Notes: generated by a model not told the origin, from the sequence alone. 64,000 nucleotides of DNA from an uncultured virus (IMG/VR IMGVR_UViG_3300031942_000002) (IMGVR_UViG_3300031942_000002), one strand, 5' to 3'. Counted from the first letter of the stretch, positions 12,527-59,964 are shown. Program-made: numbers and translations.

Positions 12527-12651
12527 GCCTGGCATTAGAGCAGTATTATAGGTAAATTAGAAGATATACACGACAGGAGACACACACCAATGCACGAAAC
12601 GCAGGTAACCGACGAGCGCGGTGGGCCTCAGACGGTGAAGCGAGAGGCGTC

Positions 12652-12852
12652 GTGAACGACCAGATCCTGCACCTGCACTATTACGCGGCGCCTCGGGCGC
12701 GAGCACTGCCACCGGCGCGTCGCAAACCAGGTGTGGCCGAGGAAATTTTCACCAACTTCACTCGGGGCTACCTGCTGGGATGCGCGGTGTTCGGCACCTT
12801 CATCATGGTGGGCTTGTTCCTATTTGTCGTCTTGGCGTTCCTCTTCGCGTGA
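12652..12852 (+). CDS. small membrane protein
   Basis: C-terminal hydrophobic helix. Confidence 0.6.
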   Translation: MNDQILHLHYYAAPRARALPPARRKPGVAEEIFTNFTRGYLLGCAVFGTFIMVGLFLFVVLAFLFA

Positions 12853-22482: not shown

Positions 22483-25400
22483 ATGGAACAGGTGGCGGCG
22501 GCCCCGGGATATGGGGATAACCCGGGGCCCCCCGAACCAGAGGATCAGGTTGGCTTTCACAACCATTCGGAGGGCTCATTTCTCGACGGCTTCTCCAAAG
22601 TCGGCCAGATCGCTCGGCGGGCCCGCGAGCTGCGCCAGAGCGCGGTGGCGCTCACCGACCACGGCGAGGTCAACCAGCACCTGGCATTCCAGAAGGCCTG
22701 CCGCGCCGAGGGGGTGCGGCCGATCTTCGGGATGGAAGGCTATTGGTGTTCCAACATCGCCAAAGCGCGGGAGGAGAAGAATCCCACCGGCAACACCAGT
22801 CATTTGTGCCTGATCGCCAAGAATCAGGAGGGGCTGCGCAACCTGTGGGCGCTGTCGTCCACCGCATATGACGCCAAGCACTTCTACAACAAGCCGCTGG
22901 CCGATCCGGAGCTGCTGAGCCAGCACGCGGCTGGCCTCTACGCCAGCGACGGTTGCATGCTGACCGGGCTGAACCGGGCGGTGGTGGCCGGTGACGAGGA
23001 CCTGGCCCGGTTGTACATGGGCGGGTTGCACGAGATCTTCCGCGAGAATTTCTACGTGGAACTGCATACCTGGCAGTACATGGAGCTGCCTGATATCCCG
23101 CCTGAGGTGGTGGTGCTGGACGCCAACGGCAACCCGTGGCTGCCCGGCGACACCGAGGAGATGATCACCGCCGCGCAGCGCCGCCGGGAGATCATCGACC
23201 AGCACCGGCTTAACGCCGAGATGACCCAGCTGAACCAGGCCAAGGTTCGCCTGGCCACCGAAATGGGCATCCCGATGGTGGTGGTCAACGATTCCCATTA
23301 CGCCTATCCCGGGCACTGGCGCTACAAGGAGCTGGTGTGGGGTTTTAGGGCCGACTCCAATCCCGATCAGGCCGAGGTCAGCGGGCAGAAGGCCGACTGG
23401 CTGATGAGCGAGAGCGAGCTGCACTTCTGGATGAAGCGGCACGGCGTCAGCCGGGAGATCGTGTCCGAGGCCATCAAGCACTCCGCGCATATGGCCGAGC
23501 AGTGCGACGTGGTGATCAAGCCCATGCTGGGCATGCCGCTGTTCACCAAGAGCGAGGCCGATGACTGGGAGACGTTCCTGGACCTGGTGGAGAAAGGCTT
23601 CCGCGACCGGGTGGAGCGCGGCGGGCTGGACCGCGACCTGTACTGGCGCCGGATGGAGTCCGAGCTGCAGGTCATCTGCGACAAGCGGTTCGCCGGGTAC
23701 TTCCTGATCGTCACCGACTACGTGCGCGCCGCCCGCGACGGCAGCTGGGCGCAGTACGTGCTGGGCACCGGGCCCCAGCCGATGATGATCGGGCCCGGCC
23801 GGGGCTCGGTGGGCGGCTCCCTAGTGGCCTGGCTGCTGGGCATCACCAGCATCGACCCGATCAAATACGGACTGCTGTTTGAGCGCTTCCTGATCCCCGA
23901 ACGCACCGGCTTCCCCGACATCGACATCGACTTCCCGCGCTCCAAGCGGGCGGGCATGAAGGAGTACGTCAAGCACCGCTGGGGACACGACCACGTGTGC
24001 TCCATCTGCACGATGAGCCGCAACCAGGCCCGAGGCACCGTCAAAGACATCGGTCGGATGCTGGGCATCGACTACAAGGAACTGGAAGACATCGGCAAGA
24101 TCGTCGAGCGCATCACCGCCGCCGAGATCGAAGAGGAGGAGTCGGCCGAGGAGGACGTCCGCAGCTGGGAGGAGGTCATCGAAGACCACCGCAAGGAGAT
24201 TGGTCCCTACATGGACAGGCACCCCAAGCTGTTCGAGGATCTCGACAAGATGTTCGGAGTGATCCGCCAGACCGGGGTGCACGCCGCCGCCGTGCTGATC
24301 AGCGATCAGTCGCTGGCCGGTGGGACGCTGCCGACCCGGGTCAAGAACAACACGCTGACGACGCAGTTTGACATGTATGACGTCGAGGAGCTGGGCGGGC
24401 TAAAAGGCGATTTTCTGGCGCTGCGCCACCTGGATGCGCTGCAGATCGCCGCCGACCTGGCCAAGGAACGCCACGATGCCGACATCGACTACGAGGCATT
24501 CGACGAGCGCCACTATGAGGATCCGGTCATCTGGACCCAGATCGACGAAGGGCAGACCGTTGGCATCTTCCAGCTGGGCACACCCGGTGGAACTGAGTCT
24601 GCGATCGAGTTTCGGCCGCGCAGCATGGTTGAAGTCGCTGACCTCATCTCCATCAACCGCCCCGGTGTGCGCGATGCGGGTCTCTACCACGCGTACCTAC
24701 GCCGTCGAGCTGGCGTTGAGTCGGTTGTCTACCAGCACCCGATGATGGAGCCGATCACCCAGAGCACGTTCGGCATCCTGGTTTACCAGGAGCAGCTGAT
24801 GGAAGCCTCTCGGGAGCTGGCCGGGTTCAGCCAGTCGGAGTCCTCGGATCTGCAGAAGGCGGTCGGTAAGAAGATCATGGCCAAAGTGCTGGCCATGAAG
24901 GAGAAGTTCATCGATGGCTGCCGCACCCATTCGGGGATTCCGGCGCCGGTGGCCGCTGACATCTGGCGCTCCATCGAAGCCTCCGGCCGGTACTGCTTCA
25001 ACAAGAGCCACGCGCTGGGCTACGCCATGATCGCGGCCTGGGAGATCTGGATGAAGCATTATTACCCGGCCGAGATGCTGGTCGGCTTCATGCGGGTGGA
25101 CGAGGCCAAGCGCAACTACTTCGTGCGCGACGCCCGGCGCAAAGGGCTGACCATCCTGCCGCCCGACATCAACGAGTCGCGGGTGACGTTCCGTATCGAA
25201 GGGCAGACCATCCGCTACGGGCTAGACGCCATCCATGGCGTGGGTGAAGTCAACGCCCGGGCGCTGGTGGCTGCGCAGCCCTATAGCTCGTTCAACGACT
25301 ATCTGGCGCGCGCCGGGAAAGGCGCCTACAAAGCCTGTGCGGTCAACCTGGTGAAGATCGGGGCACTGGACGAGTTCGGCGACCGCACCGCCATGCTGCG

Positions 25401-25950
25401 CGAGATCGAGTACCGCTGGGCGGGCAAGGACATCGGGCCCGGCAAGTGGGCCAAGGCTAGCCCGGCTGAGCGCGACGCGCTGGTGGCCGACAAGATCGCC
25501 AAGTACCCCAAGCGGTTTCAGATCGAGGTCCCCGACTTCGCTAACGACGAGGTGCTCTACCAGATCGAGCAGCAGCTGGTCGGCAGCTTCGTCACCATCG
25601 ATCCGATGGGTGCCTATGTGCGCGCCATCGACGCCGAAGCGATCCGCAACCCATCGCAGATCCGCAAATATCTGCCCGGCCAGGAGCTGGTGATCGGCGG
25701 GCAGATCGTCAAGATCCGCAAGACTAAGACGAAGAAAGGCCGCAACCCGGGCTCCGAGATGGCGTTCATCGGGGTGGAATGGCAGGGCGACACCTACGAT
25801 ATTGTGGTGTTCCCGGGCCCGTGGGAGCGGTACAAATACTCCATCGAGATGGGCAAGCCGGTGATCTGTGAATGCGAGCGCCTAGACAATGGCGTGTGTC
25901 TTAGCAATTTGTATCGACTGGACAAGATATGGGATGAGTATGGCAACTAA
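22483..25950 (+). CDS. dnaE: DNA polymerase III alpha subunit
   Basis: PHP motifs HNHS..S.LDG, LTDHG, NDSHY; GPGRGS; PDIDIDF; GVHAAAV; GIFQL; YQEQLM; FNKSH; C-terminal OB. Confidence 0.97.
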   Translation: MEQVAAAPGYGDNPGPPEPEDQVGFHNHSEGSFLDGFSKVGQIARRARELRQSAVALTDHGEVNQHLAFQKACRAEGVRPIFGMEGYWCSNIAKAREEKNPTGNTSHLCLIAKNQEGLRNLWALSSTAYDAKHFYNKPLADPELLSQHAAGLYASDGCMLTGLNRAVVAGDEDLARLYMGGLHEIFRENFYVELHTWQYMELPDIPPEVVVLDANGNPWLPGDTEEMITAAQRRREIIDQHRLNAEMTQLNQAKVRLATEMGIPMVVVNDSHYAYPGHWRYKELVWGFRADSNPDQAEVSGQKADWLMSESELHFWMKRHGVSREIVSEAIKHSAHMAEQCDVVIKPMLGMPLFTKSEADDWETFLDLVEKGFRDRVERGGLDRDLYWRRMESELQVICDKRFAGYFLIVTDYVRAARDGSWAQYVLGTGPQPMMIGPGRGSVGGSLVAWLLGITSIDPIKYGLLFERFLIPERTGFPDIDIDFPRSKRAGMKEYVKHRWGHDHVCSICTMSRNQARGTVKDIGRMLGIDYKELEDIGKIVERITAAEIEEEESAEEDVRSWEEVIEDHRKEIGPYMDRHPKLFEDLDKMFGVIRQTGVHAAAVLISDQSLAGGTLPTRVKNNTLTTQFDMYDVEELGGLKGDFLALRHLDALQIAADLAKERHDADIDYEAFDERHYEDPVIWTQIDEGQTVGIFQLGTPGGTESAIEFRPRSMVEVADLISINRPGVRDAGLYHAYLRRRAGVESVVYQHPMMEPITQSTFGILVYQEQLMEASRELAGFSQSESSDLQKAVGKKIMAKVLAMKEKFIDGCRTHSGIPAPVAADIWRSIEASGRYCFNKSHALGYAMIAAWEIWMKHYYPAEMLVGFMRVDEAKRNYFVRDARRKGLTILPPDINESRVTFRIEGQTIRYGLDAIHGVGEVNARALVAAQPYSSFNDYLARAGKGAYKACAVNLVKIGALDEFGDRTAMLREIEYRWAGKDIGPGKWAKASPAERDALVADKIAKYPKRFQIEVPDFANDEVLYQIEQQLVGSFVTIDPMGAYVRAIDAEAIRNPSQIRKYLPGQELVIGGQIVKIRKTKTKKGRNPGSEMAFIGVEWQGDTYDIVVFPGPWERYKYSIEMGKPVICECERLDNGVCLSNLYRLDKIWDEYGN

Positions 25951-32152: not shown

Positions 32153-32323
32153 GTTGTCACTGCAGGCGCACCGACGGCTGGCATTACCGGCCGTGCCGCT
32201 TCCTGTTGCTGGCTGTGGCCTGCGAGCACCGCGTCGACCCGGCTGAAGGTGTGTCCATTTACCGGCCGAGGACTATAGTGAAATCTTCGCCCAACTTTCC
32301 CCCAACGCTTCGAGGAGACACAC

Positions 32324-33328
32324 ATGAAGGTGGCCGAATTAGCGGAGAGCCTGGCCAAACGTCAAGAGACACGCCGGATCGTACGGCTGGGCGATCTGGC
32401 CATCGCGGACGACTGTTCGACGATCACGATTAACGACGGGCAGTTCGCGCTTGACGAGCAGGCGCTCAACATTCTGGCCCGTTATCTCAAGCTGCCGGTG
32501 CAGTATCTTCGGGACTGCCCGCCCGATTTTCGCGCCGAGACACTGAAATTCTGGCGGGACCAAAAAGCCCGGGCCGACGTGGTGTTGGAGTCCGTCGACA
32601 ATGGCATCGTGAGCATGTTCAGCCCCGGCCTGATGATGATCCCGGTGGCACGCGTTGGCAAGCTGGTGGAAACCGTGTTCAAGCCTGAGGACGAGATCCG
32701 CCAGCTCACCCGCGAGGAGAAACGCTTCCACCTCGACGTCACCACCGCCGACCATAAGGTGGACGTCCCCAACCCAAAGGGGATCCTCGGTCGACCCGAG
32801 GTGGGGGACATCACCGAGGGCGGTATCCGCTTTCTGGCCTATCCCGATCGGGTCAAGGCCCCCAGCGTGTCGCGCTACTTCCACCGGCTGGTGTGCACCA
32901 ACGGGATGACCACCTCGGAGAGCGACGGGAAGATCACCATCACCGGGATGACCATGCCCGAGGTGTTGGCCTCCATGGAGATCGCCGCCGAGGAGCTGCT
33001 TTCCACCATGGACGAGCATCTGGATCGCTACAAGCAGACGGCTGACATCCCGGTCCCCGGGCATCCGGTGAGTTTCGCCGAGCAGCTGGCCCACGAATAC
33101 CGGCTCTCCTCCGCTCTCACGCATGCCGTCATCGAGCAGGTGCGCCAGCTTCCCGAGGATGGCACCACCGTCTACGACGTCACCCAGGCGGTGACCTTGG
33201 TGGCCAACCAGGTCCACGCCTACGACACACGCAGCCGCCTGCAGTCGTTGGGTGGCCGCTTGGCCTGGGACACCGCGCGGATGATCGAGAGGTGCGCCAA
33301 GTGCGAACGCCTCCTGGTCGAGGCCTGA
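32324..33328 (+). CDS. DUF932-like protein
   Basis: RLVCTNGM motif, TVYDVTQAVT; GGAGACACAC RBS; terminal CxxC. Confidence 0.65.
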   Translation: MKVAELAESLAKRQETRRIVRLGDLAIADDCSTITINDGQFALDEQALNILARYLKLPVQYLRDCPPDFRAETLKFWRDQKARADVVLESVDNGIVSMFSPGLMMIPVARVGKLVETVFKPEDEIRQLTREEKRFHLDVTTADHKVDVPNPKGILGRPEVGDITEGGIRFLAYPDRVKAPSVSRYFHRLVCTNGMTTSESDGKITITGMTMPEVLASMEIAAEELLSTMDEHLDRYKQTADIPVPGHPVSFAEQLAHEYRLSSALTHAVIEQVRQLPEDGTTVYDVTQAVTLVANQVHAYDTRSRLQSLGGRLAWDTARMIERCAKCERLLVEA

Positions 33329-33611
33329 CCGAGCACGGCCCCACGTTCTTCCCGACGTTGAGCCTGTGGTGGGCGCTGTGGCTGCGCACGCCGTTCTGTC
33401 AGCATGTCGAGAAAACCACCGGCGTCAGCCTGAAACCCAGTCTGGAAGGTTCCACGGTGGGATTGTTCTGGTAACCTCACAGGTGTTAAGCGAGGTGCCG
33501 CGAGAGGGAAAATGCTTCTTTGAGAACGACGGCTTAGCGGGCAATAACAAGTCCAGGAAGATGTGCGATCACACGGATGCCTGGTCGGCACCACAGTCCC
33601 GCTTCGTCCAC

Positions 33612-34037
33612 TCAGCGTGAGCCATTGAGTAGGACTTCGGCGTCATGGGCCGAGCCCACCCGGTAGCGTCCACGGCTGACCAACCACACCATATCGCGCT
33701 CGATCAGCCTGTTGATGCGCCAGGTTGCACCGGCGTTGGTGAGGTCGAACGCCCCCGCGATTTCTCGGGCGGTGATTCCCTCCGGCCGGTCCGCAGCCGC
33801 CATCCAGGCCCAAGTCTCATCGAGGGGCTTGGAGATCGGACGCTCGGGGCGCGGCGGCGCCAGTTTCCGGCGGCGACGCTTCTTCGGTGCAGGCTTGGCC
33901 ACCCGCTTGGATTCGATCGCCTTGGGCGCGGGGACCGCGTGGCCGCTCAGCAGCTCGCGCACGAAGGAGGCCGCGCTGCTGTTGTCTTCGATCTCGGCGG
34001 TGATGAGTCCGGTCGCGGGGTTGATCTCGATCTTCAT
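33612..34037 (-). CDS. winged-helix DNA-binding protein
   Basis: GITAREIAGAFDLT...ATWRINRLIERDMV...RGRY. Confidence 0.65.
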   Translation of the reverse strand: MKIEINPATGLITAEIEDNSSAASFVRELLSGHAVPAPKAIESKRVAKPAPKKRRRRKLAPPRPERPISKPLDETWAWMAAADRPEGITAREIAGAFDLTNAGATWRINRLIERDMVWLVSRGRYRVGSAHDAEVLLNGSR

Positions 34038-34408
34038 GGCTTTTTCCTGGGTGTGGTCTTGCGGGCTTCGGCGCGGTCTTCGGTGCTGGGTTTCTCCACC
34101 CCACCGCGTATCGCGGTGGACAGCGCCCTGATCTGGGCGCGATCCTCGGCCGTGAGTCGATAGCCGGGACCGCCGTCGATGGTGTAGTTGGGCGCGTACT
34201 CGTAGCTGGTGCCCAGCAGCTGGTAGGCCTTGGTCAGCTTCTGGGTCTTGTGCCCGCCGCAGAACAGGCAGCGGAAACTACGCCAGATCTCCCAGCGTTC
34301 GACACGTCGGTTGAAGTGTTCGCGTGAGACGAGGCTGTCCGGATCCCAGCTGTGCTTCATGTCTCGGCACCAGAGGTATTCGGGGGGAATGAGGTCGGCA
34401 ATGGACAT
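34034..34408 (-). CDS. small Cys/His protein
   Basis: CRDMKHSW...CLFCG; start at ATG 34408 downstream of minus-strand promoter motif. Confidence 0.6.
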   Translation of the reverse strand: MSIADLIPPEYLWCRDMKHSWDPDSLVSREHFNRRVERWEIWRSFRCLFCGGHKTQKLTKAYQLLGTSYEYAPNYTIDGGPGYRLTAEDRAQIRALSTAIRGGVEKPSTEDRAEARKTTPRKKP

Positions 34409-34453
34409 CAGGGGGCCTTGGTCATGGTTATGTGTCTCTTCCAATCTTGCTCT

Positions 34454-34472
34454 AATGTACCTACAGAGTATA
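34454..34472 (-). promoter_or_regulatory. minus-strand copy of promoter/operator motif
   Basis: TATACT-CTGTA-GGTACATT on minus strand, upstream of GAGACACAT and the leftward operon. Confidence 0.6.
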
Positions 34473-34525
34473 ACGTCGTTTTTGGGGCCGTCACACCGCA
34501 CATCTTCAGCTGTTACTGTTGGCCT

Positions 34526-34560
34526 AGGCGTCCGAGTACTGTGTGTCTCCTCGGACGCCT
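34526..34560. repeat. perfect 11-bp hairpin with GAGACACAC complement in the loop
   Basis: AGGCGTCCGAG-TACTGTGTGTCTC-CTCGGACGCCT. Confidence 0.85.
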
Positions 34561-34583
34561 CTTTAATGCCCAAGGAGTCCCAA

Positions 34584-34760
34584 ATGGCCGACACTTACAC
34601 CACCTTGCAGCTCGTAGTCCCGTGCAAATTGGACGAGGCCACCGCGTGGTGGGAAGAAGTTAGGCAGGTGATGGGGGAGGACACGCCCGCCGACGTCAGT
34701 GTGGAGAAGGGCTCCGACGGCAAGGGTCGCATCATTGTGGCGTTGCACGCCGAGACTTAA
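34584..34760 (+). CDS. small hypothetical protein (58 aa)
   Basis: AAGGAG RBS then ATG. Confidence 0.6.
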   Translation: MADTYTTLQLVVPCKLDEATAWWEEVRQVMGEDTPADVSVEKGSDGKGRIIVALHAET

Positions 34761-34795
34761 CCCAGAAAGCCCCCCGCCGCGTTAGGGTTGGGTAC

Positions 34796-35236
34796 GTGAC
34801 ACGACCCGAGTCTGTCCGCCGGTTGGGTAGCGAACCCAATCCCGCGCCGGATCCCCTGCCAGATACGGAACCATATCCTTCCGAAATCCCGAAGATCCGC
34901 CGCGCATTCCGCGACCTGCGGGCCCGCTTCGAGAACACTCGCTTCGACGATCGCACCATGGACGAGTTCCACGGCGCCGCTGTCGATTTGTTCGGTGAGG
35001 CGGGCTTTCTGGTGAGCGTCACCTGGGACGAGGCCCGCAACCTCGATGGCAGCTCCACCAACATGTACCTGCCCACCGTGACCATCTGCGCGCGCACCGA
35101 TCCCGAAAGCGAAACCGACCACGATAGATACCGCCATGAGGTGGTGACCGGCCAGGCCGACGGCATCGCCGGTTACGTGCGCCCGGGCAGTGGTGGCCAG
35201 CTCTACGAAGACCCGATTCGCAAAGTGATCACATGA
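34796..35236 (+). CDS. hypothetical protein
   Basis: TAGGGT 7 nt upstream of GTG, possibly leaderless. Confidence 0.65.
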   Translation: MTRPESVRRLGSEPNPAPDPLPDTEPYPSEIPKIRRAFRDLRARFENTRFDDRTMDEFHGAAVDLFGEAGFLVSVTWDEARNLDGSSTNMYLPTVTICARTDPESETDHDRYRHEVVTGQADGIAGYVRPGSGGQLYEDPIRKVIT

Positions 35237-35376
35237 AGTTCCTGGTCGGCTGGGCCGTCGGGGGCACCGAGGAGATCGAAGCGGAAAGCCCCGAGGAAGC
35301 CAAAGAGATCATGGGCGAGCAGCTGCCGCGCCGCGACTGTGAATGGACCGAGATCACCATCGAGGAGCCTACGTGA
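35233..35376 (+). CDS. small acidic protein (47 aa, not in ORF track)
   Basis: ATGA and GTGA coupling; IEAESPEEA. Confidence 0.6.
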   Translation: MKFLVGWAVGGTEEIEAESPEEAKEIMGEQLPRRDCEWTEITIEEPT

Positions 35377-36110
35377 CCGTGCACGTCGTACGTCTCGATG
35401 TCGTCGACCCCAACCGCGCACATGGCCTCGGCCGCCACGTTGAACACGATTCGCGATCCCTGCTCTATGCCTTCGCCCCCACCGCACCGCTGCCCACCCA
35501 CCCGGTGGAGTGGGCGATGGACGCCCCGGCGCTCAACCAGATGAACTACAACGGCTGCGTCGGCAATGGTTTCGCGCAGTTCCTCAACACCAGTTATGCC
35601 GCCCCGCTGCGCCAGCGGTTGCACAAGGAGTGGTTCACCGAGGGCGATGCGCTAAACATCTACGGGCTGGCCACCCATCTGGACGGGCTGCACGATTCGT
35701 CCACCGGGTTCTTCCCGCCCGATGACGACGGCAGCTCGGGCCTGGGCGGGGTGAAGGCCTGTCAGCAGCTGGGCTACGTCCGCAACTACCAGCACACCTT
35801 CAGCTTCCAGATGCTGCTGCATGCCCTGGCCACCCAGCCGGTGGTGGTCGGCACCGCTTGGACCAATGACATGGAGAACGCCGACCCGGTCACCGGCCTG
35901 GTCATCGTGGGCAGTCTGGACGACTCCAACATCGCCGGTGGCCACGAATATCTGGCGCTGGGCTTCAACCCGGTCACCAAGCTGCTCAAATTCCGCAACA
36001 GCTGGGGTTCCAGCTGGGGCCAGAACGGCTCGTTTTATGTCACGTTCAGTGACTACCAGCGCCTCATCGCGGCTCAGGGGGATGTGGTGGTGCCGCAGAT
36101 TGCCGCATGA
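35373..36110 (+). CDS. papain-like (C1) cysteine peptidase
   Basis: LNQ....GCVG, GGHEY, FRNSWGSSWGQNG. Confidence 0.85.
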   Translation: MTVHVVRLDVVDPNRAHGLGRHVEHDSRSLLYAFAPTAPLPTHPVEWAMDAPALNQMNYNGCVGNGFAQFLNTSYAAPLRQRLHKEWFTEGDALNIYGLATHLDGLHDSSTGFFPPDDDGSSGLGGVKACQQLGYVRNYQHTFSFQMLLHALATQPVVVGTAWTNDMENADPVTGLVIVGSLDDSNIAGGHEYLALGFNPVTKLLKFRNSWGSSWGQNGSFYVTFSDYQRLIAAQGDVVVPQIAA

Positions 36111-40394: not shown

Positions 40395-40703
40395 CAGCAG
40401 ACACACACAAGGAGACACACAACATGGCAGTAAAACTGAAACCACCCACGCTCGAAGAGCTGCGTAAAGGGGTGGCGTGATGAGGGTCAAGATCAGCTAT
40501 AGCGTGGACGTCGACCTAGACGTCTACCGGGCCCGCCACCATGCCGACACCCCCTCCCTGCCCGCCACCGAGATCGCCCACGACGTCCGCTGGCTGGCGG
40601 CGACGGTCTTCGCCCACGCCATGGAAAAGGCCCAGCCCAGCTCGTATGTAACCGGCTATCACGTGCAGGAATGGGATGACGAGTGCGACGAGGTGGTGGC
40701 GTG

Positions 40704-52677: not shown

Positions 52678-52713
52678 TTAACCTACTGGGTAAGTTTTTG
52701 CTACAATGGGCCC
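52678..52713 (+). promoter_or_regulatory. palindrome plus extended -10 of a leaderless gene
   Basis: TTAACC-TACTG-GGTAAG then TGCTACAAT-6 nt-ATG. Confidence 0.65.
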
Positions 52714-52950
52714 ATGACACACATTCATATCCCCTTGCGCGTCTCGGCGCTGCTGGCCTTATTGGCAGCGGTGGCTTCGGGCGTGATCCTGGGCGTCCAG
52801 CTGGCGCCGCCCGCCAACGCGTGCGACCCCGGCAACTGGTATGACCCCACCCACCAGGTCTGCGCCCCGTACCCGCCCGCCTACCCGCCGACCAACTACC
52901 CGGCGCCGCCCAACAACCCCTACCCGCCCAGTCAGTGGGGGCAGCAATGA
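52714..52950 (+). CDS. small secreted Pro-rich protein
   Basis: Signal peptide ending ANA, CDPGNWYDP...C, Pro/Tyr tail. Confidence 0.7.
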   Translation: MTHIHIPLRVSALLALLAAVASGVILGVQLAPPANACDPGNWYDPTHQVCAPYPPAYPPTNYPAPPNNPYPPSQWGQQ

Positions 52951-56067: not shown

Positions 56068-56183
56068 TGCAGCTGATTCCGACCTACATGAGTAAGGACG
56101 AGTTCCTGGTGATTGGTGGGGGAATGGGACGAACCCGGTGTGTCGCTTCCCTAATCTTCCTCTAACTTTGCTACAATGAGGTC

Positions 56184-56531
56184 ATGACACACACCGAACA
56201 GCTCCGCGAACCGGAGCATCTGACCGAAGACGAAATCAAAGAGATTGCCCTGAAACTGGTGGGGGGCAGTCTGTTCGTCGCCACTCAGGCGCCGCCGGAG
56301 ATGATGACCTCCATCTTTCTGCCGGTGGCCCTGGACGGGCTGGCGGGCATTGACGTCGACAAGATCGGCAACATCGTCGAAGACCTGAGCAAGGCCGGGC
56401 ATTGGGCGATCAACGGCTACCCGACGTTCCTCAGCTGCCAGGTGATCCACGTCGAGGACTGGATCACTATCGTGGAGAAGGCCGAGGCCGCGCGCGCCGC
56501 CGTGCTCGATGCGGTCGAAGGTCAGTCGTGA
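56184..56531 (+). CDS. hypothetical protein, leaderless
   Basis: TGCTACAAT-6 nt-ATGACACAC. Confidence 0.75.
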   Translation: MTHTEQLREPEHLTEDEIKEIALKLVGGSLFVATQAPPEMMTSIFLPVALDGLAGIDVDKIGNIVEDLSKAGHWAINGYPTFLSCQVIHVEDWITIVEKAEAARAAVLDAVEGQS

Positions 56532-59371: not shown

Positions 59372-59964
59372 GGACCGTAGGTGGAAGGTGTGAAGTGCCC
59401 GGCGTGGATAGGAATAAGGTGAAAGTGGCACTGTAGAGGGAGGACGCCCGGTGCGCCGCGACGAGTTCTTGGCCGGGGGACCGATGGTGCGGGGACGCTG
59501 GTCGGCCGTCGCGTGCCTGTGGTGGTCGGGTTATCTGGTCGGGCGCACCCAGCCGGTCTATGACCTGTGGAAGGTTGACAACAACACCGTCTGGGACTGG
59601 ATCAGCGTCGGCCTCGGGATGATTGCTCTCGTCTTCGGGTTGATCTTCCTGGACCAGTACGGCCGCAACTGTTGGTTCAGCTGGACGTTCGACGACGTCA
59701 AATGGGACGGGCGGTTCACCCGCGACGAGGTGAAGAGGCATGGATGGATACCCTGGCGTCATTCCTCAGTGCGATAGGGTCCTCGGCGGTCGCCACCATC
59801 GTCACCATGCTGTTCACCACGGCGTTTTCCCGTGCCACCCCCGACGAGTCGGGGGACAACAAGGAACGCGACCGGCTACAGGACGAGGTGGTCTGGCTGC
59901 GAGGCCAGCTGGACGACCAGCTGGACGACGATGATAAGAACACCCCCAAGAAGACGGAGACATC

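What the first reader, a model, noticed from the sequence alone, without database searches (positions are those of the whole stretch)
34526..34560. Perfect hairpin whose loop is the complement of the GAGACACAC start element
Seen: 11-bp stem AGGCGTCCGAG/CTCGGACGCCT with 13-nt loop TACTGTGTGTCTC in a divergent intergenic region. It is the only exact GGAGACACAC copy I found that is not followed by a start codon. On the + strand (probable 5' leader of 34584) the loop exposes GUGUGUCUC, antisense to the element at 11 or more ribosome-binding sites. On the - strand it exposes GAGACACAC itself. Established: loop-exposed seeds drive antisense recognition, and CsrB-type RNAs sequester regulators by displaying the target motif in loops. 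Inference: one small RNA or UTR could switch off, or titrate the regulator of, the whole GACACAC gene class, giving a multi-target translational switch.
Basis: partly seen in the sequence, partly recalled or inferred. Interest (0 to 1): 0.75.

Follow-up and report, generated by a model that had tools for sequence, protein, structure and literature searches.

The report
Conserved phage hairpin with anti-RBS loop
A stable hairpin in a soil phage genome shows in its loop the exact complement of the short sequence that precedes a dozen of the phage's own start codons; a related phage keeps the arrangement and well-studied mycobacteriophages have it with a different motif, which points to an RNA that damps translation of a whole set of genes.

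Summary
Window 34526-34560 is a perfect 11-bp hairpin with a 13-nt loop. The loop holds the only opposite-strand copy of GGAGACACAC in the 125.7-kb phage record. The 12 gene-strand copies all lie 0-4 nt before an ATG.

The only close relative found (143.6 kb, 62-74% aa identity) has 16 gene-strand copies and one opposite-strand copy. That copy lies in a hairpin loop at the syntenic place. Twelve loop bases are identical, and three stem pairs are changed on both sides.

Three genes flanking the hairpin in the window are absent from the relative, so the hairpin is a self-standing conserved unit.

An independent parallel exists. The lone reverse "start-associated sequence" of Cluster K1 mycobacteriophages, noted in 2011 and left unexplained, also sits in the apical loop of a conserved hairpin. 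Its G-U pairs show that it folds on the gene-sense strand.

My best reading (confidence 0.4) is a sense-strand RNA hairpin, probably also a terminator. Its GU-rich, CUCC-ended loop would pair with the Shine-Dalgarno plus ACA-enhancer element of the non-structural gene class, as GcvB and 6C do.

No expression data exist. Rivals are a plain terminator, a minus-strand decoy and a dsDNA site.

The parts
34526..34536 (+). 5' arm of the hairpin (AGGCGTCCGAG)
   Evidence: The outer 5 bp are identical in the relative, and inner pairs 6, 8 and 10 are changed on both sides there.
34537..34549 (+). 13-nt loop TACTGTGTGTCTC. On the + strand it is the complement of GAGACACAC; with the first C of the 3' arm it is the complement of GGAGACACAC.
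   Evidence: The 12-nt word TGTGTGTCTCCT (34540-34551) is the longest word shared by the two intergenic units. Most loop bases are unpaired in the ensemble.
34550..34560 (+). 3' arm of the hairpin (CTCGGACGCCT)
34561..34568 (+). CTTTAATG tail after the stem: a weak T tract, as after other terminator-like hairpins of this phage
   Evidence: Compare CTTTCC after the hairpin at G0 11925 and CCTAAATTT in the relative.
34490..34509 (+). Upstream block GTCACAC..CA.ATCTT.A, conserved with the relative. Its CACAC could pair with the loop's GUGUG (inference).
   Evidence: the 7-nt word GTCACAC is shared: G0 34490, L009 6061.
34441..34476 (+). Promoter-like stretch CCAATCTTGCTCTAATGTACCTACAGAG plus TATAACGT. 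It resembles the phage's class-B promoters (CTCTAA..TT.CTACAATG) but has an off-consensus -10. It overlaps a - strand promoter-like site (GTGACG-16-TATACT).
   Evidence: Inference only; no start site is known.
32315..32323 (+). Example target: GAGACACAC directly before the ATG of the 334-aa gene upstream. Eleven more + strand copies begin at 2202, 2378, 3227, 3782, 3986, 9885, 12577, 14047, 14599, 40412 and 42402.

Best explanation
The hairpin is a conserved, self-standing element that acts as + strand (gene-sense) RNA. The stem makes a stable structure that probably ends or punctuates a transcript. It resembles the phage's other T-poor terminator-like hairpins.

The loop holds a GU-rich, CUCC-ended seed (GUGUGUCUCC) open. 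That seed is the exact complement of the element GGAG+ACACAC, a Shine-Dalgarno core followed by an ACA-type translation enhancer. The element precedes 12 start codons of non-structural genes in this record and 16 in the relative.

When the RNA accumulates, the loop would pair with these ribosome-binding sites and lower their translation. It would be a phage-encoded, multi-target anti-RBS RNA that works like GcvB or the actinobacterial 6C sRNA.

Shown: the anatomy, the conservation, the stem covariation, the independence from flanking genes, the feasibility of pairing, and the parallel in Cluster K. Inferred: transcription of the + strand across it, accumulation, pairing in vivo, and the direction of the effect.
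For: (1) The lone opposite-strand copy of the motif sits in a hairpin loop in both genomes at the syntenic site. The window has 12+1 copies and the relative 16+1, with the reverse copy at 135038-135047 (L009 about 6134).

(2) The loop word TGTGTGTCTCCT (12 nt) is the longest shared word of the two intergenic units. BLAST finds no alignment of the hairpin +/-60 nt against the relative at E<=0.01.

(3) Both stems are perfect (11 and 10 bp). Aligned from the outer end, 5 pairs are identical, 3 are changed on both sides (T-A>C-G, C-G>G-C, A-T>G-C) and none is broken.

(4) Loop lengths differ (13 vs 25 nt), which does not fit a dimeric dsDNA operator.

(5) In two other orthologous intergenic hairpins of the same genome pair the loops have diverged in sequence and length. 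Loop conservation is therefore not the rule.

(6) The two - strand genes on the left and the 58-aa gene on the right are absent from the relative. The hairpin has been kept as an island.

(7) Duplex energies of the loop with the 12 start regions are -17.4 to -24.5 kcal/mol, against -11.0 +/- 3.0 for 100 other start regions (16 of those 100 at or below -14; strongest -20.3). Opening costs are 1.5 for the loop and 0.5-3.1 for the targets. This result follows by construction from the complementarity.

(8) There is an independent parallel. The Cluster K start-associated sequence has a single reverse copy in K1 phages (Pope 2011, PMC3203893, passages read). I find it in the apical 10-nt loop of a long hairpin in Anaya and in 9 of 17 sampled K phages. 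In an 8-sequence alignment 99.2% of 126 cells pair on the + strand, and 17 of those cells are G-U or U-G, which would be A-C on the other strand. In Adephagia the site lies in the gene 92-93 spacer. The authors state that late transcription appears to initiate there (PMC11373665, passage read).

(9) Established mechanism. ACA motifs enhance translation and GcvB silences them by pairing (PMC3879156, abstract). CA repeats enhance leadered and leaderless translation (PMC9031893, passages). 6C sRNA binds many mRNAs through loops without a chaperone in Actinobacteria (PMC6486639, abstract).
Against: No RNA data exist for this phage. All 24 listed runs are DNA, so transcription, strand and abundance are unknown.

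This lineage has only two genomes. Both stems are pure Watson-Crick, so they say nothing about which strand folds. Context z-scores disagree: the window favours + (z -4.26 vs -2.02) and the relative favours - (z -0.72 vs -2.72).

A 10-bp helix with a 13-nt loop is topologically strained, and the last C of the seed is in the stem (opening 4.2 kcal/mol for all 10 nt).

Promoter evidence upstream is weak, with off-consensus -10 boxes.

The hairpin looks like the phage's other terminator-like hairpins, several of which also have large loops. Termination alone may explain the stem.

In Cluster K, 8 of 17 sampled phages have no reverse SAS (<=3 mismatches) at this place. Three of them (Amohnition, Amgine, Shandong1) keep a C/U-rich loop. 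The paper names a reverse site only for the four K1 phages. An antisense copy is therefore not obligatory for start-associated sequences.

In the K alignment the shuffle control is only moderate: 28 of 500 shuffles reach the observed value, and 2 pairs have double changes. Some annotators call an ORF over that K region.
Confidence: 0.4

Rival explanations
1. It is an ordinary intrinsic terminator or RNA-stability hairpin of the + strand with no trans-acting role. The loop sequence is kept for a local reason, such as a protein or RNase site or a cis contact with the upstream CACAC block.
For: In the relative it lies 85 nt after the stop of the 334-aa gene and about 60 nt before the next gene, which has its own promoter-like TAGGGT box. 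This is a classic terminator position. The tail CTTTAATG resembles the tails of other perfect hairpins of these genomes, and loops of 13-28 nt are common among them. The scan lists a sub-hairpin here as terminator-like.
Against: It does not explain why the loop is the exact complement of the most over-represented start element, or why it is the only opposite-strand copy in both genomes. Loops of two other orthologous hairpins diverged freely. The T tracts are poor. From my recall of Czyz et al. 2014, not read here, mycobacterial RNA polymerase needs a U tract for efficient termination. The Cluster K counterpart has no T tract after it.
Confidence: 0.22
2. The - strand is transcribed and the hairpin displays GGAGACACAC itself, without a start codon. 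It would be a decoy that titrates 30S subunits or a protein that recognises the element (CsrB-like sponge).
For: The - strand copy reads like a full start element with ATG replaced: GGAGACACACAGT, against the common GGAGACACACATG. The - strand hairpin is as stable as the + strand one. In the relative the - strand context has the better z-score.
Against: All neighbouring genes in the relative are on the + strand and no convincing - strand promoter precedes the hairpin in either genome. The first G of GGAG is in the stem. One copy is a poor sponge. As I recall, CsrB-type RNAs carry many repeats. In the Cluster K parallel, 17 of 126 stem cells are G-U pairs that exist only on the sense strand.
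Confidence: 0.1
3. GGAGACACAC is also a dsDNA site for a phage DNA-binding regulator, in the manner of the asymmetric stoperators of Cluster A phages. The hairpin copy is simply one site in the other orientation, and the inverted repeat is a second protein site.
For: The element is asymmetric, in one orientation and close to gene starts just downstream of promoter-like boxes, as stoperators are. Pope 2011 makes this contrast. For the inverted repeats next to SAS, the K-phage authors favour DNA-binding proteins.
Against: The GGAG core, the 0-5 nt spacing to ATG/GTG/TTG at 28 of 28 gene-strand GGAGACACAC sites and the known enhancer effect of ACA/CA repeats explain the element at the RNA level. 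Arm spacing of 13 vs 25 bp does not fit one dimeric protein.
Confidence: 0.1
4. It is a relic: the inverted remnant of the start region of a lost - strand gene, or an inverted duplication, with no present function.
For: The copy looks like a complete start element without its ATG in both genomes. This region of the window has gained and lost genes. I estimate from base composition (my own arithmetic, no tool) that about 0.14 opposite-strand copies are expected by chance per genome, which is not negligible.
Against: Flanking proteins are only 62-74% identical and the intergenic flanks are not alignable by BLAST. A neutral relic would not keep 12 loop bases and a perfect stem with three double changes.
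Confidence: 0.07
5. The long - strand ORF 34594..34034 is translated through the hairpin, so the motif is merely coding sequence.
For: The frame is open from a GTG at 34594.
Against: GC at codon position 3 is 0.55 in the extension 34594-34409. It is 0.80 in the gene proper and 0.83 in 29 long genes. The PHROG family aligns from residue 5 of the 124-aa form that starts at ATG 34408. The extension overlaps the start of the + gene at 34584. The - strand ORF over the relative's hairpin gives an unrelated peptide.
Confidence: 0.01

Closest known systems
Start-associated sequences (SAS) of Cluster K mycobacteriophages and their lone reverse copy (Pope et al. 2011, PMC3203893)
   Same: Both are a short asymmetric element with a GGAG core. 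Both have 11-19 copies, lie a few nt before start codons (mostly ATG), occur only at non-structural genes and keep one orientation. [quoted passage not shown] That copy also lies in the apical loop of a conserved hairpin.
   Different: The sequence differs (GGGATAGGAGCCC vs GGAGACACAC) and the phages are unrelated (temperate siphoviruses vs a Cluster C-like large phage). The K hairpin is longer, has no T tail and lies where late transcription is said to start. The hairpin context of the reverse SAS is not mentioned in the passages I read. The 2025 survey PMC12699233 has 0 occurrences of 'hairpin' or 'antisense'.
GcvB sRNA of enteric bacteria
   Same: A G/U-rich seed pairs with C/A-rich (ACA) translation enhancers at or beside the ribosome-binding sites of many mRNAs and silences them (PMC3879156, abstract).
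   Different: GcvB is a host, Hfq-dependent sRNA with a linear seed (recalled). Here the seed is in a hairpin loop, includes the anti-SD CUCC, is phage-encoded and would target the phage's own genes. There is no sequence or Rfam relation.
6C sRNA of Actinobacteria
   Same: Loop-exposed seeds bind many mRNAs without a chaperone in high-GC Gram-positives (PMC6486639, abstract). The K-phage hairpin loops (CCUCCUAUCC, CCCUCCUUCCCC) are likewise C-rich.
   Different: 6C has C-rich loops and a conserved multi-hairpin fold. This loop is GU-rich. Rfam gives no match at E<=1.
Phage P1/P7 c4 antisense RNA and S. aureus RNAIII C-rich loops (recalled, not read here)
   Same: Structured RNAs whose loops pair with ribosome-binding sites to block translation. 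c4 is phage-encoded and acts on a target in its own operon.
   Different: c4 has a single target region. RNAIII is a large host regulator. No homology was tested.
CsrB/RsmY-type protein sponges
   Same: The target motif is displayed in hairpin loops.
   Different: Sponges carry many repeats and bind a known protein (recalled). Here there is one copy, no known binding protein and no evidence of - strand transcription.

Membership tests
SAS-type start-associated element (for the target motif GGAGACACAC) | Short asymmetric repeat, many copies, far above chance | tested here: met
   13 GAGACACAC copies in the window against 0.75 expected. 12+1 GGAGACACAC copies in the record and 16+1 in the relative; the reversed control gave 0.
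SAS-type start-associated element (for the target motif GGAGACACAC) | Within a few nt of start codons, one orientation, contains the SD core | tested here: met
   12 of 12 gene-strand GGAGACACAC copies in the record lie 0-4 nt before ATG. 16 of 16 in the relative lie 0-5 nt before ATG, GTG or TTG.
SAS-type start-associated element (for the target motif GGAGACACAC) | Restricted to non-structural genes | tested here: met
   Motif genes are helicases, a methyltransferase and small genes of unknown function. The window runs from a minor tail gene into the replication module. Structural genes of the rest of the record were not annotated.
SAS-type start-associated element (for the target motif GGAGACACAC) | Sequence consensus GGGATAGGAGCCC (Cluster K family in the strict sense) | tested here: not met
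   The sequence is different, so this is an analogue and not a member.
Intrinsic (factor-independent) terminator | GC-rich stem-loop | tested here: met
   An 11-bp stem at -21.1 kcal/mol.
Intrinsic (factor-independent) terminator | Short loop and a U tract directly after the stem | tested here: inconclusive
   The loop is 13 nt (25 in the relative). The tails are CTTTAATG and CCTAAATTT, which are weak T tracts. The scan flags only a sub-hairpin.
Intrinsic (factor-independent) terminator | Transcript 3' ends map to it | not testable with these tools
   No RNA run holds the phage.
Trans-acting base-pairing sRNA (GcvB / 6C type) | Accessible seed complementary to several mRNAs at their RBS | tested here: met
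   9-10 nt are perfectly complementary to 12 start regions. Loop opening costs 1.5 kcal/mol and duplexes are -17.4 to -24.5. This follows by construction.
Trans-acting base-pairing sRNA (GcvB / 6C type) | Seed conserved among relatives | tested here: met
   A 12-nt word is identical in the one close relative. n = 2 genomes only.
Trans-acting base-pairing sRNA (GcvB / 6C type) | Own promoter, or processing that yields a discrete RNA | tested here: inconclusive
   There are class-B-like promoter remnants upstream in both genomes, but the -10 boxes are off consensus.
Trans-acting base-pairing sRNA (GcvB / 6C type) | Expressed, and changes target translation | not testable with these tools
   No RNA data. 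The host is unknown.
Rfam families (all 4227) | Covariance-model match | tested here: not met
   Window 33000-36000 at E<=1 gave only two chance-level hits elsewhere. The Anaya region gave none over its hairpin.
CsrB-type sponge | Many repeats of the protein-binding motif in loops of one RNA | tested here: not met
   There is a single opposite-strand copy per genome.

The most novel reading that the evidence does not exclude
Anti-start-element hairpins are a general device of actinobacteriophages that has evolved at least twice. A sense-strand transcript (in Cluster K1, the region where late transcription starts) carries, in a hairpin loop, the complement of the phage's own start-associated sequence. 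As it accumulates it shuts off translation of the whole early or non-structural gene class. This would give the start-associated sequences, whose role is still described as unclear in 2024-2025 papers, a function as addresses for an RNA-based temporal switch.
Probability: 0.3. Interest if true: 0.8.

Novelty: new variant of a known kind. Interest (0 to 1): 0.62.

Why it matters
If true, a phage would control a dozen or more of its own genes after transcription with one roughly 35-nt structure. Each regulated gene would be tagged by its ribosome-binding site.

It would also explain two loose ends in mycobacteriophage biology. One is why start-associated sequences are conserved beyond what 16S pairing needs. 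The other is why K1 phages keep exactly one reverse copy.

The Cluster K case can be tested at once. Adephagia and Anaya grow on the laboratory strain M. smegmatis mc2155, recombineering of these phages is routine, and RNA-seq of Adephagia infection is already published.

For annotation, it shows that the one 'wrong-way' copy of an over-represented start motif deserves attention.

Tried and rejected
Expression: the look-up of sequencing runs listed 24 holders, none on record as RNA. No RNA holder is listed.

Population variation: I laid contigs of 4 soil DNA runs. A roughly 90%-identical variant contig spans 34115-34822 in two runs (73 other letters, 7 gaps).

More relatives:
- Four protein scans of IMG/VR gave one relative.
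- A hairpin-pattern scan of IMG/VR gave 14 stretches, of which only that relative was genuine.
- The metagenome scan gave 80 loci. One is an identical fragment that starts inside the peptidase gene, and 79 have <=44% identity with 0 copies of GGAGACACAC.
- A search of the loci of 5 kb or more among L012-L090 for hairpin loops antisense to their own start regions gave only noise.
- The genome-contig scan gave nothing.
- megablast against named phages gave no match.
- Myrna, the nearest named kin of the 146-aa protein at 44% aa identity, was fetched, but its genes here are closely packed and at that distance the spacer cannot be compared; its sequence was not scanned for the motif or a hairpin.

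Rfam gave no family.

A conserved - strand peptide over the hairpin was rejected.

The idea of a specific cis pairing between the hairpin and the RBS of the upstream 334-aa gene was dropped. In the window that RBS gives the longest match (14 nt), but in the relative other genes match better (15 nt) than its 334-aa homologue (10 nt) (read by eye).

Literature: the full-text search for GGAGACACAC gave 117 papers, and none of the 10 listed concerns phages.

Full report
WHAT THE WINDOW IS.
The window is the reverse strand of bases 8162-72161 of a 125.7-kb IMG/VR virus record, estimated 84% complete. GC content is about 63%. megablast finds no named phage. The 146-aa protein just right of the finding is 44% identical to gp214 of the Cluster C2 mycobacteriophage Myrna, and the weaker hits are Gordonia phages. 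So this is an uncultured soil actinobacteriophage, distantly akin to the large Cluster C phages.

PHROG scans place a minor tail gene at 24-878. After it comes the replication module: helicases, primase, a DNA polymerase at 22483-25950, a UvsX-like recombinase, a resolvase and an exonuclease. Then come genes of unknown function, the finding, a papain-like peptidase and glycosyltransferases.

THE OBSERVATION.
Bases 34526-34560 read AGGCGTCCGAG-TACTGTGTGTCTC-CTCGGACGCCT, a perfect 11-bp stem with a 13-nt loop. The hairpin folds at -21 kcal/mol on either strand. In its + strand context it folds far better than shuffles (z -4.26, 0 of 200).

GAGACACAC occurs 13 times in the window, against 0.75 expected. 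Twelve copies are on the + strand, each 0-4 nt before an ATG. The thirteenth is the hairpin loop read on the - strand. In the whole record GGAGACACAC occurs 12 times on the gene strand and once opposite.

A perfect 11-bp hairpin alone is not rare. The record has nine, against about one expected. But the loops of all 16 perfect hairpins with stem >=10 cover only 193 of 125,723 bases, so the coincidence is unlikely by chance.

The long - strand ORF through the hairpin is not a gene. Its extension has GC3 of 0.55, against 0.80-0.83 in real genes. The protein family aligns from the ATG at 34408.

CONSERVATION.
Four protein scans and one pattern scan of IMG/VR, one metagenome scan and one genome scan found a single close relative, a 143.6-kb record that is 96% complete. 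Its flanking proteins are 62% and 74% identical to the window's.

The relative has 16 gene-strand copies of GGAGACACAC, all 0-5 nt before ATG, GTG or TTG, and exactly one opposite-strand copy. That copy lies in the 25-nt loop of a perfect 10-bp hairpin, AGGCGCCGGG...CCCGGCGCCT. The hairpin sits 85 nt after the stop of the homologue of the window's 334-aa gene and about 60 nt before the homologue of the 146-aa gene.

The longest word shared by the two intergenic units is the 12-nt loop word TGTGTGTCTCCT. The next longest is 7 nt. BLAST cannot align the surroundings. Counted from the outer end, five stem pairs are identical, three are changed on both sides and none is broken.

As a control, two other orthologous intergenic hairpins of the same two genomes keep their stems, but their loops have diverged in sequence and length.

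The two - strand genes left of the hairpin (a weak winged-helix protein and a phrog_4480 protein) and the 58-aa gene to its right have no homologue in the relative. The hairpin, with about 70 nt upstream, has therefore survived as an island between lineage-specific insertions. The 79 more distant relatives (<=44% identity) lack the motif altogether.

WHAT THE TARGET ELEMENT IS.
GGAG is the Shine-Dalgarno core, and ACACAC fills the spacer to the start codon. ACA motifs and CA repeats are documented translation enhancers, for leadered and leaderless mRNAs alike (PMC3879156 abstract; PMC9031893 passages).

In line with this, the phage also has promoter-like TACAAT boxes followed after 6-7 nt by ATGACACAC or GTGACACAC. 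These are probable leaderless genes with the CA repeat after the start.

The element usually marks the first gene after one of two promoter-like classes. It is found at non-structural genes: helicases, a methyltransferase and many small genes of unknown function.

In every respect except its sequence it matches the 'start-associated sequences' (SAS) of Cluster K mycobacteriophages (Pope 2011, passages read).

AN INDEPENDENT PARALLEL.
Pope et al. noted, without explanation, that the K1 phages Anaya, Adephagia, Angelica and CrimD each have a single SAS in the opposite orientation, not at a gene start. I looked at that site.

In Anaya it is 1 of 17 matches at <=2 mismatches. It lies in the apical 10-nt loop (CCUCCUAUCC) of a long two-part hairpin in the spacer between genes 96 and 97. 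Of 17 sampled Cluster K phages, chosen to span 70-100% identity out of 150 matching records, 9 have the reverse SAS (<=3 mismatches) in that loop.

In an 8-sequence alignment, 99.2% of 126 cells pair. When the partner columns are slid, 34-48% pair. Two pairs change on both sides. Seventeen cells are G-U or U-G, which would be A-C mismatches on the other strand, so the fold belongs to the gene-sense strand. The shuffle control is only moderate (28 of 500), because the sequences are close kin.

Three further subclusters keep the hairpin with C/U-rich loops such as CCCUCCUUCCCC. Five sampled phages have other loops.

In Adephagia the site lies in the gene 92-93 spacer. The authors write that late transcription appears to initiate there and to run through cos (PMC11373665, passage read). 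The figures were not available to me, so I do not know whether the start lies before or after the hairpin. Some annotators call an ORF over the region.

HOW IT MOST LIKELY WORKS.
By position in the relative, by its tail, and by likeness to other hairpins of these genomes, the stem is probably a terminator-like or stabilising structure of a + strand transcript.

The loop keeps GUGUGUCUC single-stranded, with an opening cost of 1.5 kcal/mol. Its duplexes with the 12 start regions are -17.4 to -24.5 kcal/mol, against -11.0 +/- 3.0 for 100 other start regions, 16 of which also reach -14 or below (strongest -20.3).

I therefore read it as a phage-encoded anti-RBS RNA that lowers translation of the GGAGACACAC class. 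It would work like GcvB, whose GU-rich seed silences ACA enhancers. It would also work like 6C, whose loop seeds act without a chaperone in Actinobacteria.

The steps from 'conserved loop' to 'pairs in vivo and represses' are inference. No RNA run holds the phage. The stems are pure Watson-Crick and give no strand information. Context z-scores disagree between the two genomes. Upstream promoter-like boxes are off consensus.

The rivals are a plain terminator, a - strand decoy, a dsDNA protein site, a relic and a translated ORF. They are weighed in their own sections.

NOVELTY AND VERDICT.
No Rfam family matches. Of the 7 papers that hold 'start-associated sequences' and 'mycobacteriophage', I read passages of three. 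None mentions a hairpin at, or an antisense role for, the reverse SAS. The supplementary figures of Pope 2011 that list the reverse sites were not opened.

This is a new variant of a known kind, a seed-in-loop anti-RBS RNA, in a new setting: a phage addressing its own tagged gene class.

The mechanism is plausible and testable, most readily in Cluster K phages. Interest 0.62.

Noticed in passing
window 52701-52722, 56171-56192 (+), 8729-8708 (-); G1 105241-105220 (-): CTACAATG or CTATAATG boxes are followed after 6-7 nt by ATGACACAC or GTGACACAC. These are probable leaderless genes whose first codons repeat the CA motif of the leadered start element. The loop seed also matches GACACAC (7 nt) at these 5' ends.
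   Followed up: partly
window 12590-12655, 40424-40480, and - strand 34425-34408: After the start element come mini-ORFs of 21, 18 and 5 codons. Their stop overlaps the start of the next gene (GTGA or TGATG). The strong RBS seems to drive some genes through translational coupling. The - strand case uses a degenerate element, GAGAGACACATAACC.
   Followed up: partly
window 955, 1055, 3203, 4595, 9855, 11410, 12552, 42360, 60892 (+): A second promoter-like class, TTAACC/ATACC..N..GGTAAACT or GGTAAATT, occurs only or mostly on the gene strand (GGTAAACT 5:0 in the record, 6:0 in the relative). It often lies 16-25 nt before the start element.
   Followed up: partly
window 33612-34408 (-) and 34584-34760 (+): Two - strand genes (a 141-aa weak winged-helix protein and a 124-aa phrog_4480 protein) and a 58-aa + gene with normal codon-position GC are absent from the relative. 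They are lineage-specific insertions on both sides of the hairpin.
   Followed up: yes
window 34783-34800; L009 6202-6217: The conserved TAGGGTT-N6-GTG suggests that the 146-aa gene (Myrna gp214-like) is leaderless with its own -10 box.
   Followed up: no
G1 133839-133874 and 24389-24418 (L097, L092): Other perfect hairpins in the relative overlap promoter-like boxes. One has CTACAAT in its loop just before the 334-aa homologue. In another the 3' arm is the upstream half of a GGTAAACT box.
   Followed up: no
window 33491-33738, 33929-34115, 34115-34822, 34798-35364: Soil DNA runs hold a second, roughly 90%-identical strain beside the window's sequence. In two runs one contig skips 185 bases (33929 to 34115) inside the - strand genes.
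   Followed up: partly
L114 39849-39906 (Anaya record 59848-59905); L131 3164-3216 (Adephagia): The lone reverse SAS of Cluster K1 phages lies in the apical loop of a conserved sense-strand hairpin. Other K subclusters keep the hairpin with C/U-rich loops.
   Followed up: yes
window 40395-40420: A CA-rich run (GCAGACACACACAAGGAGACACAC) precedes the start element at 40412, so the CA motif is doubled there.
   Followed up: no
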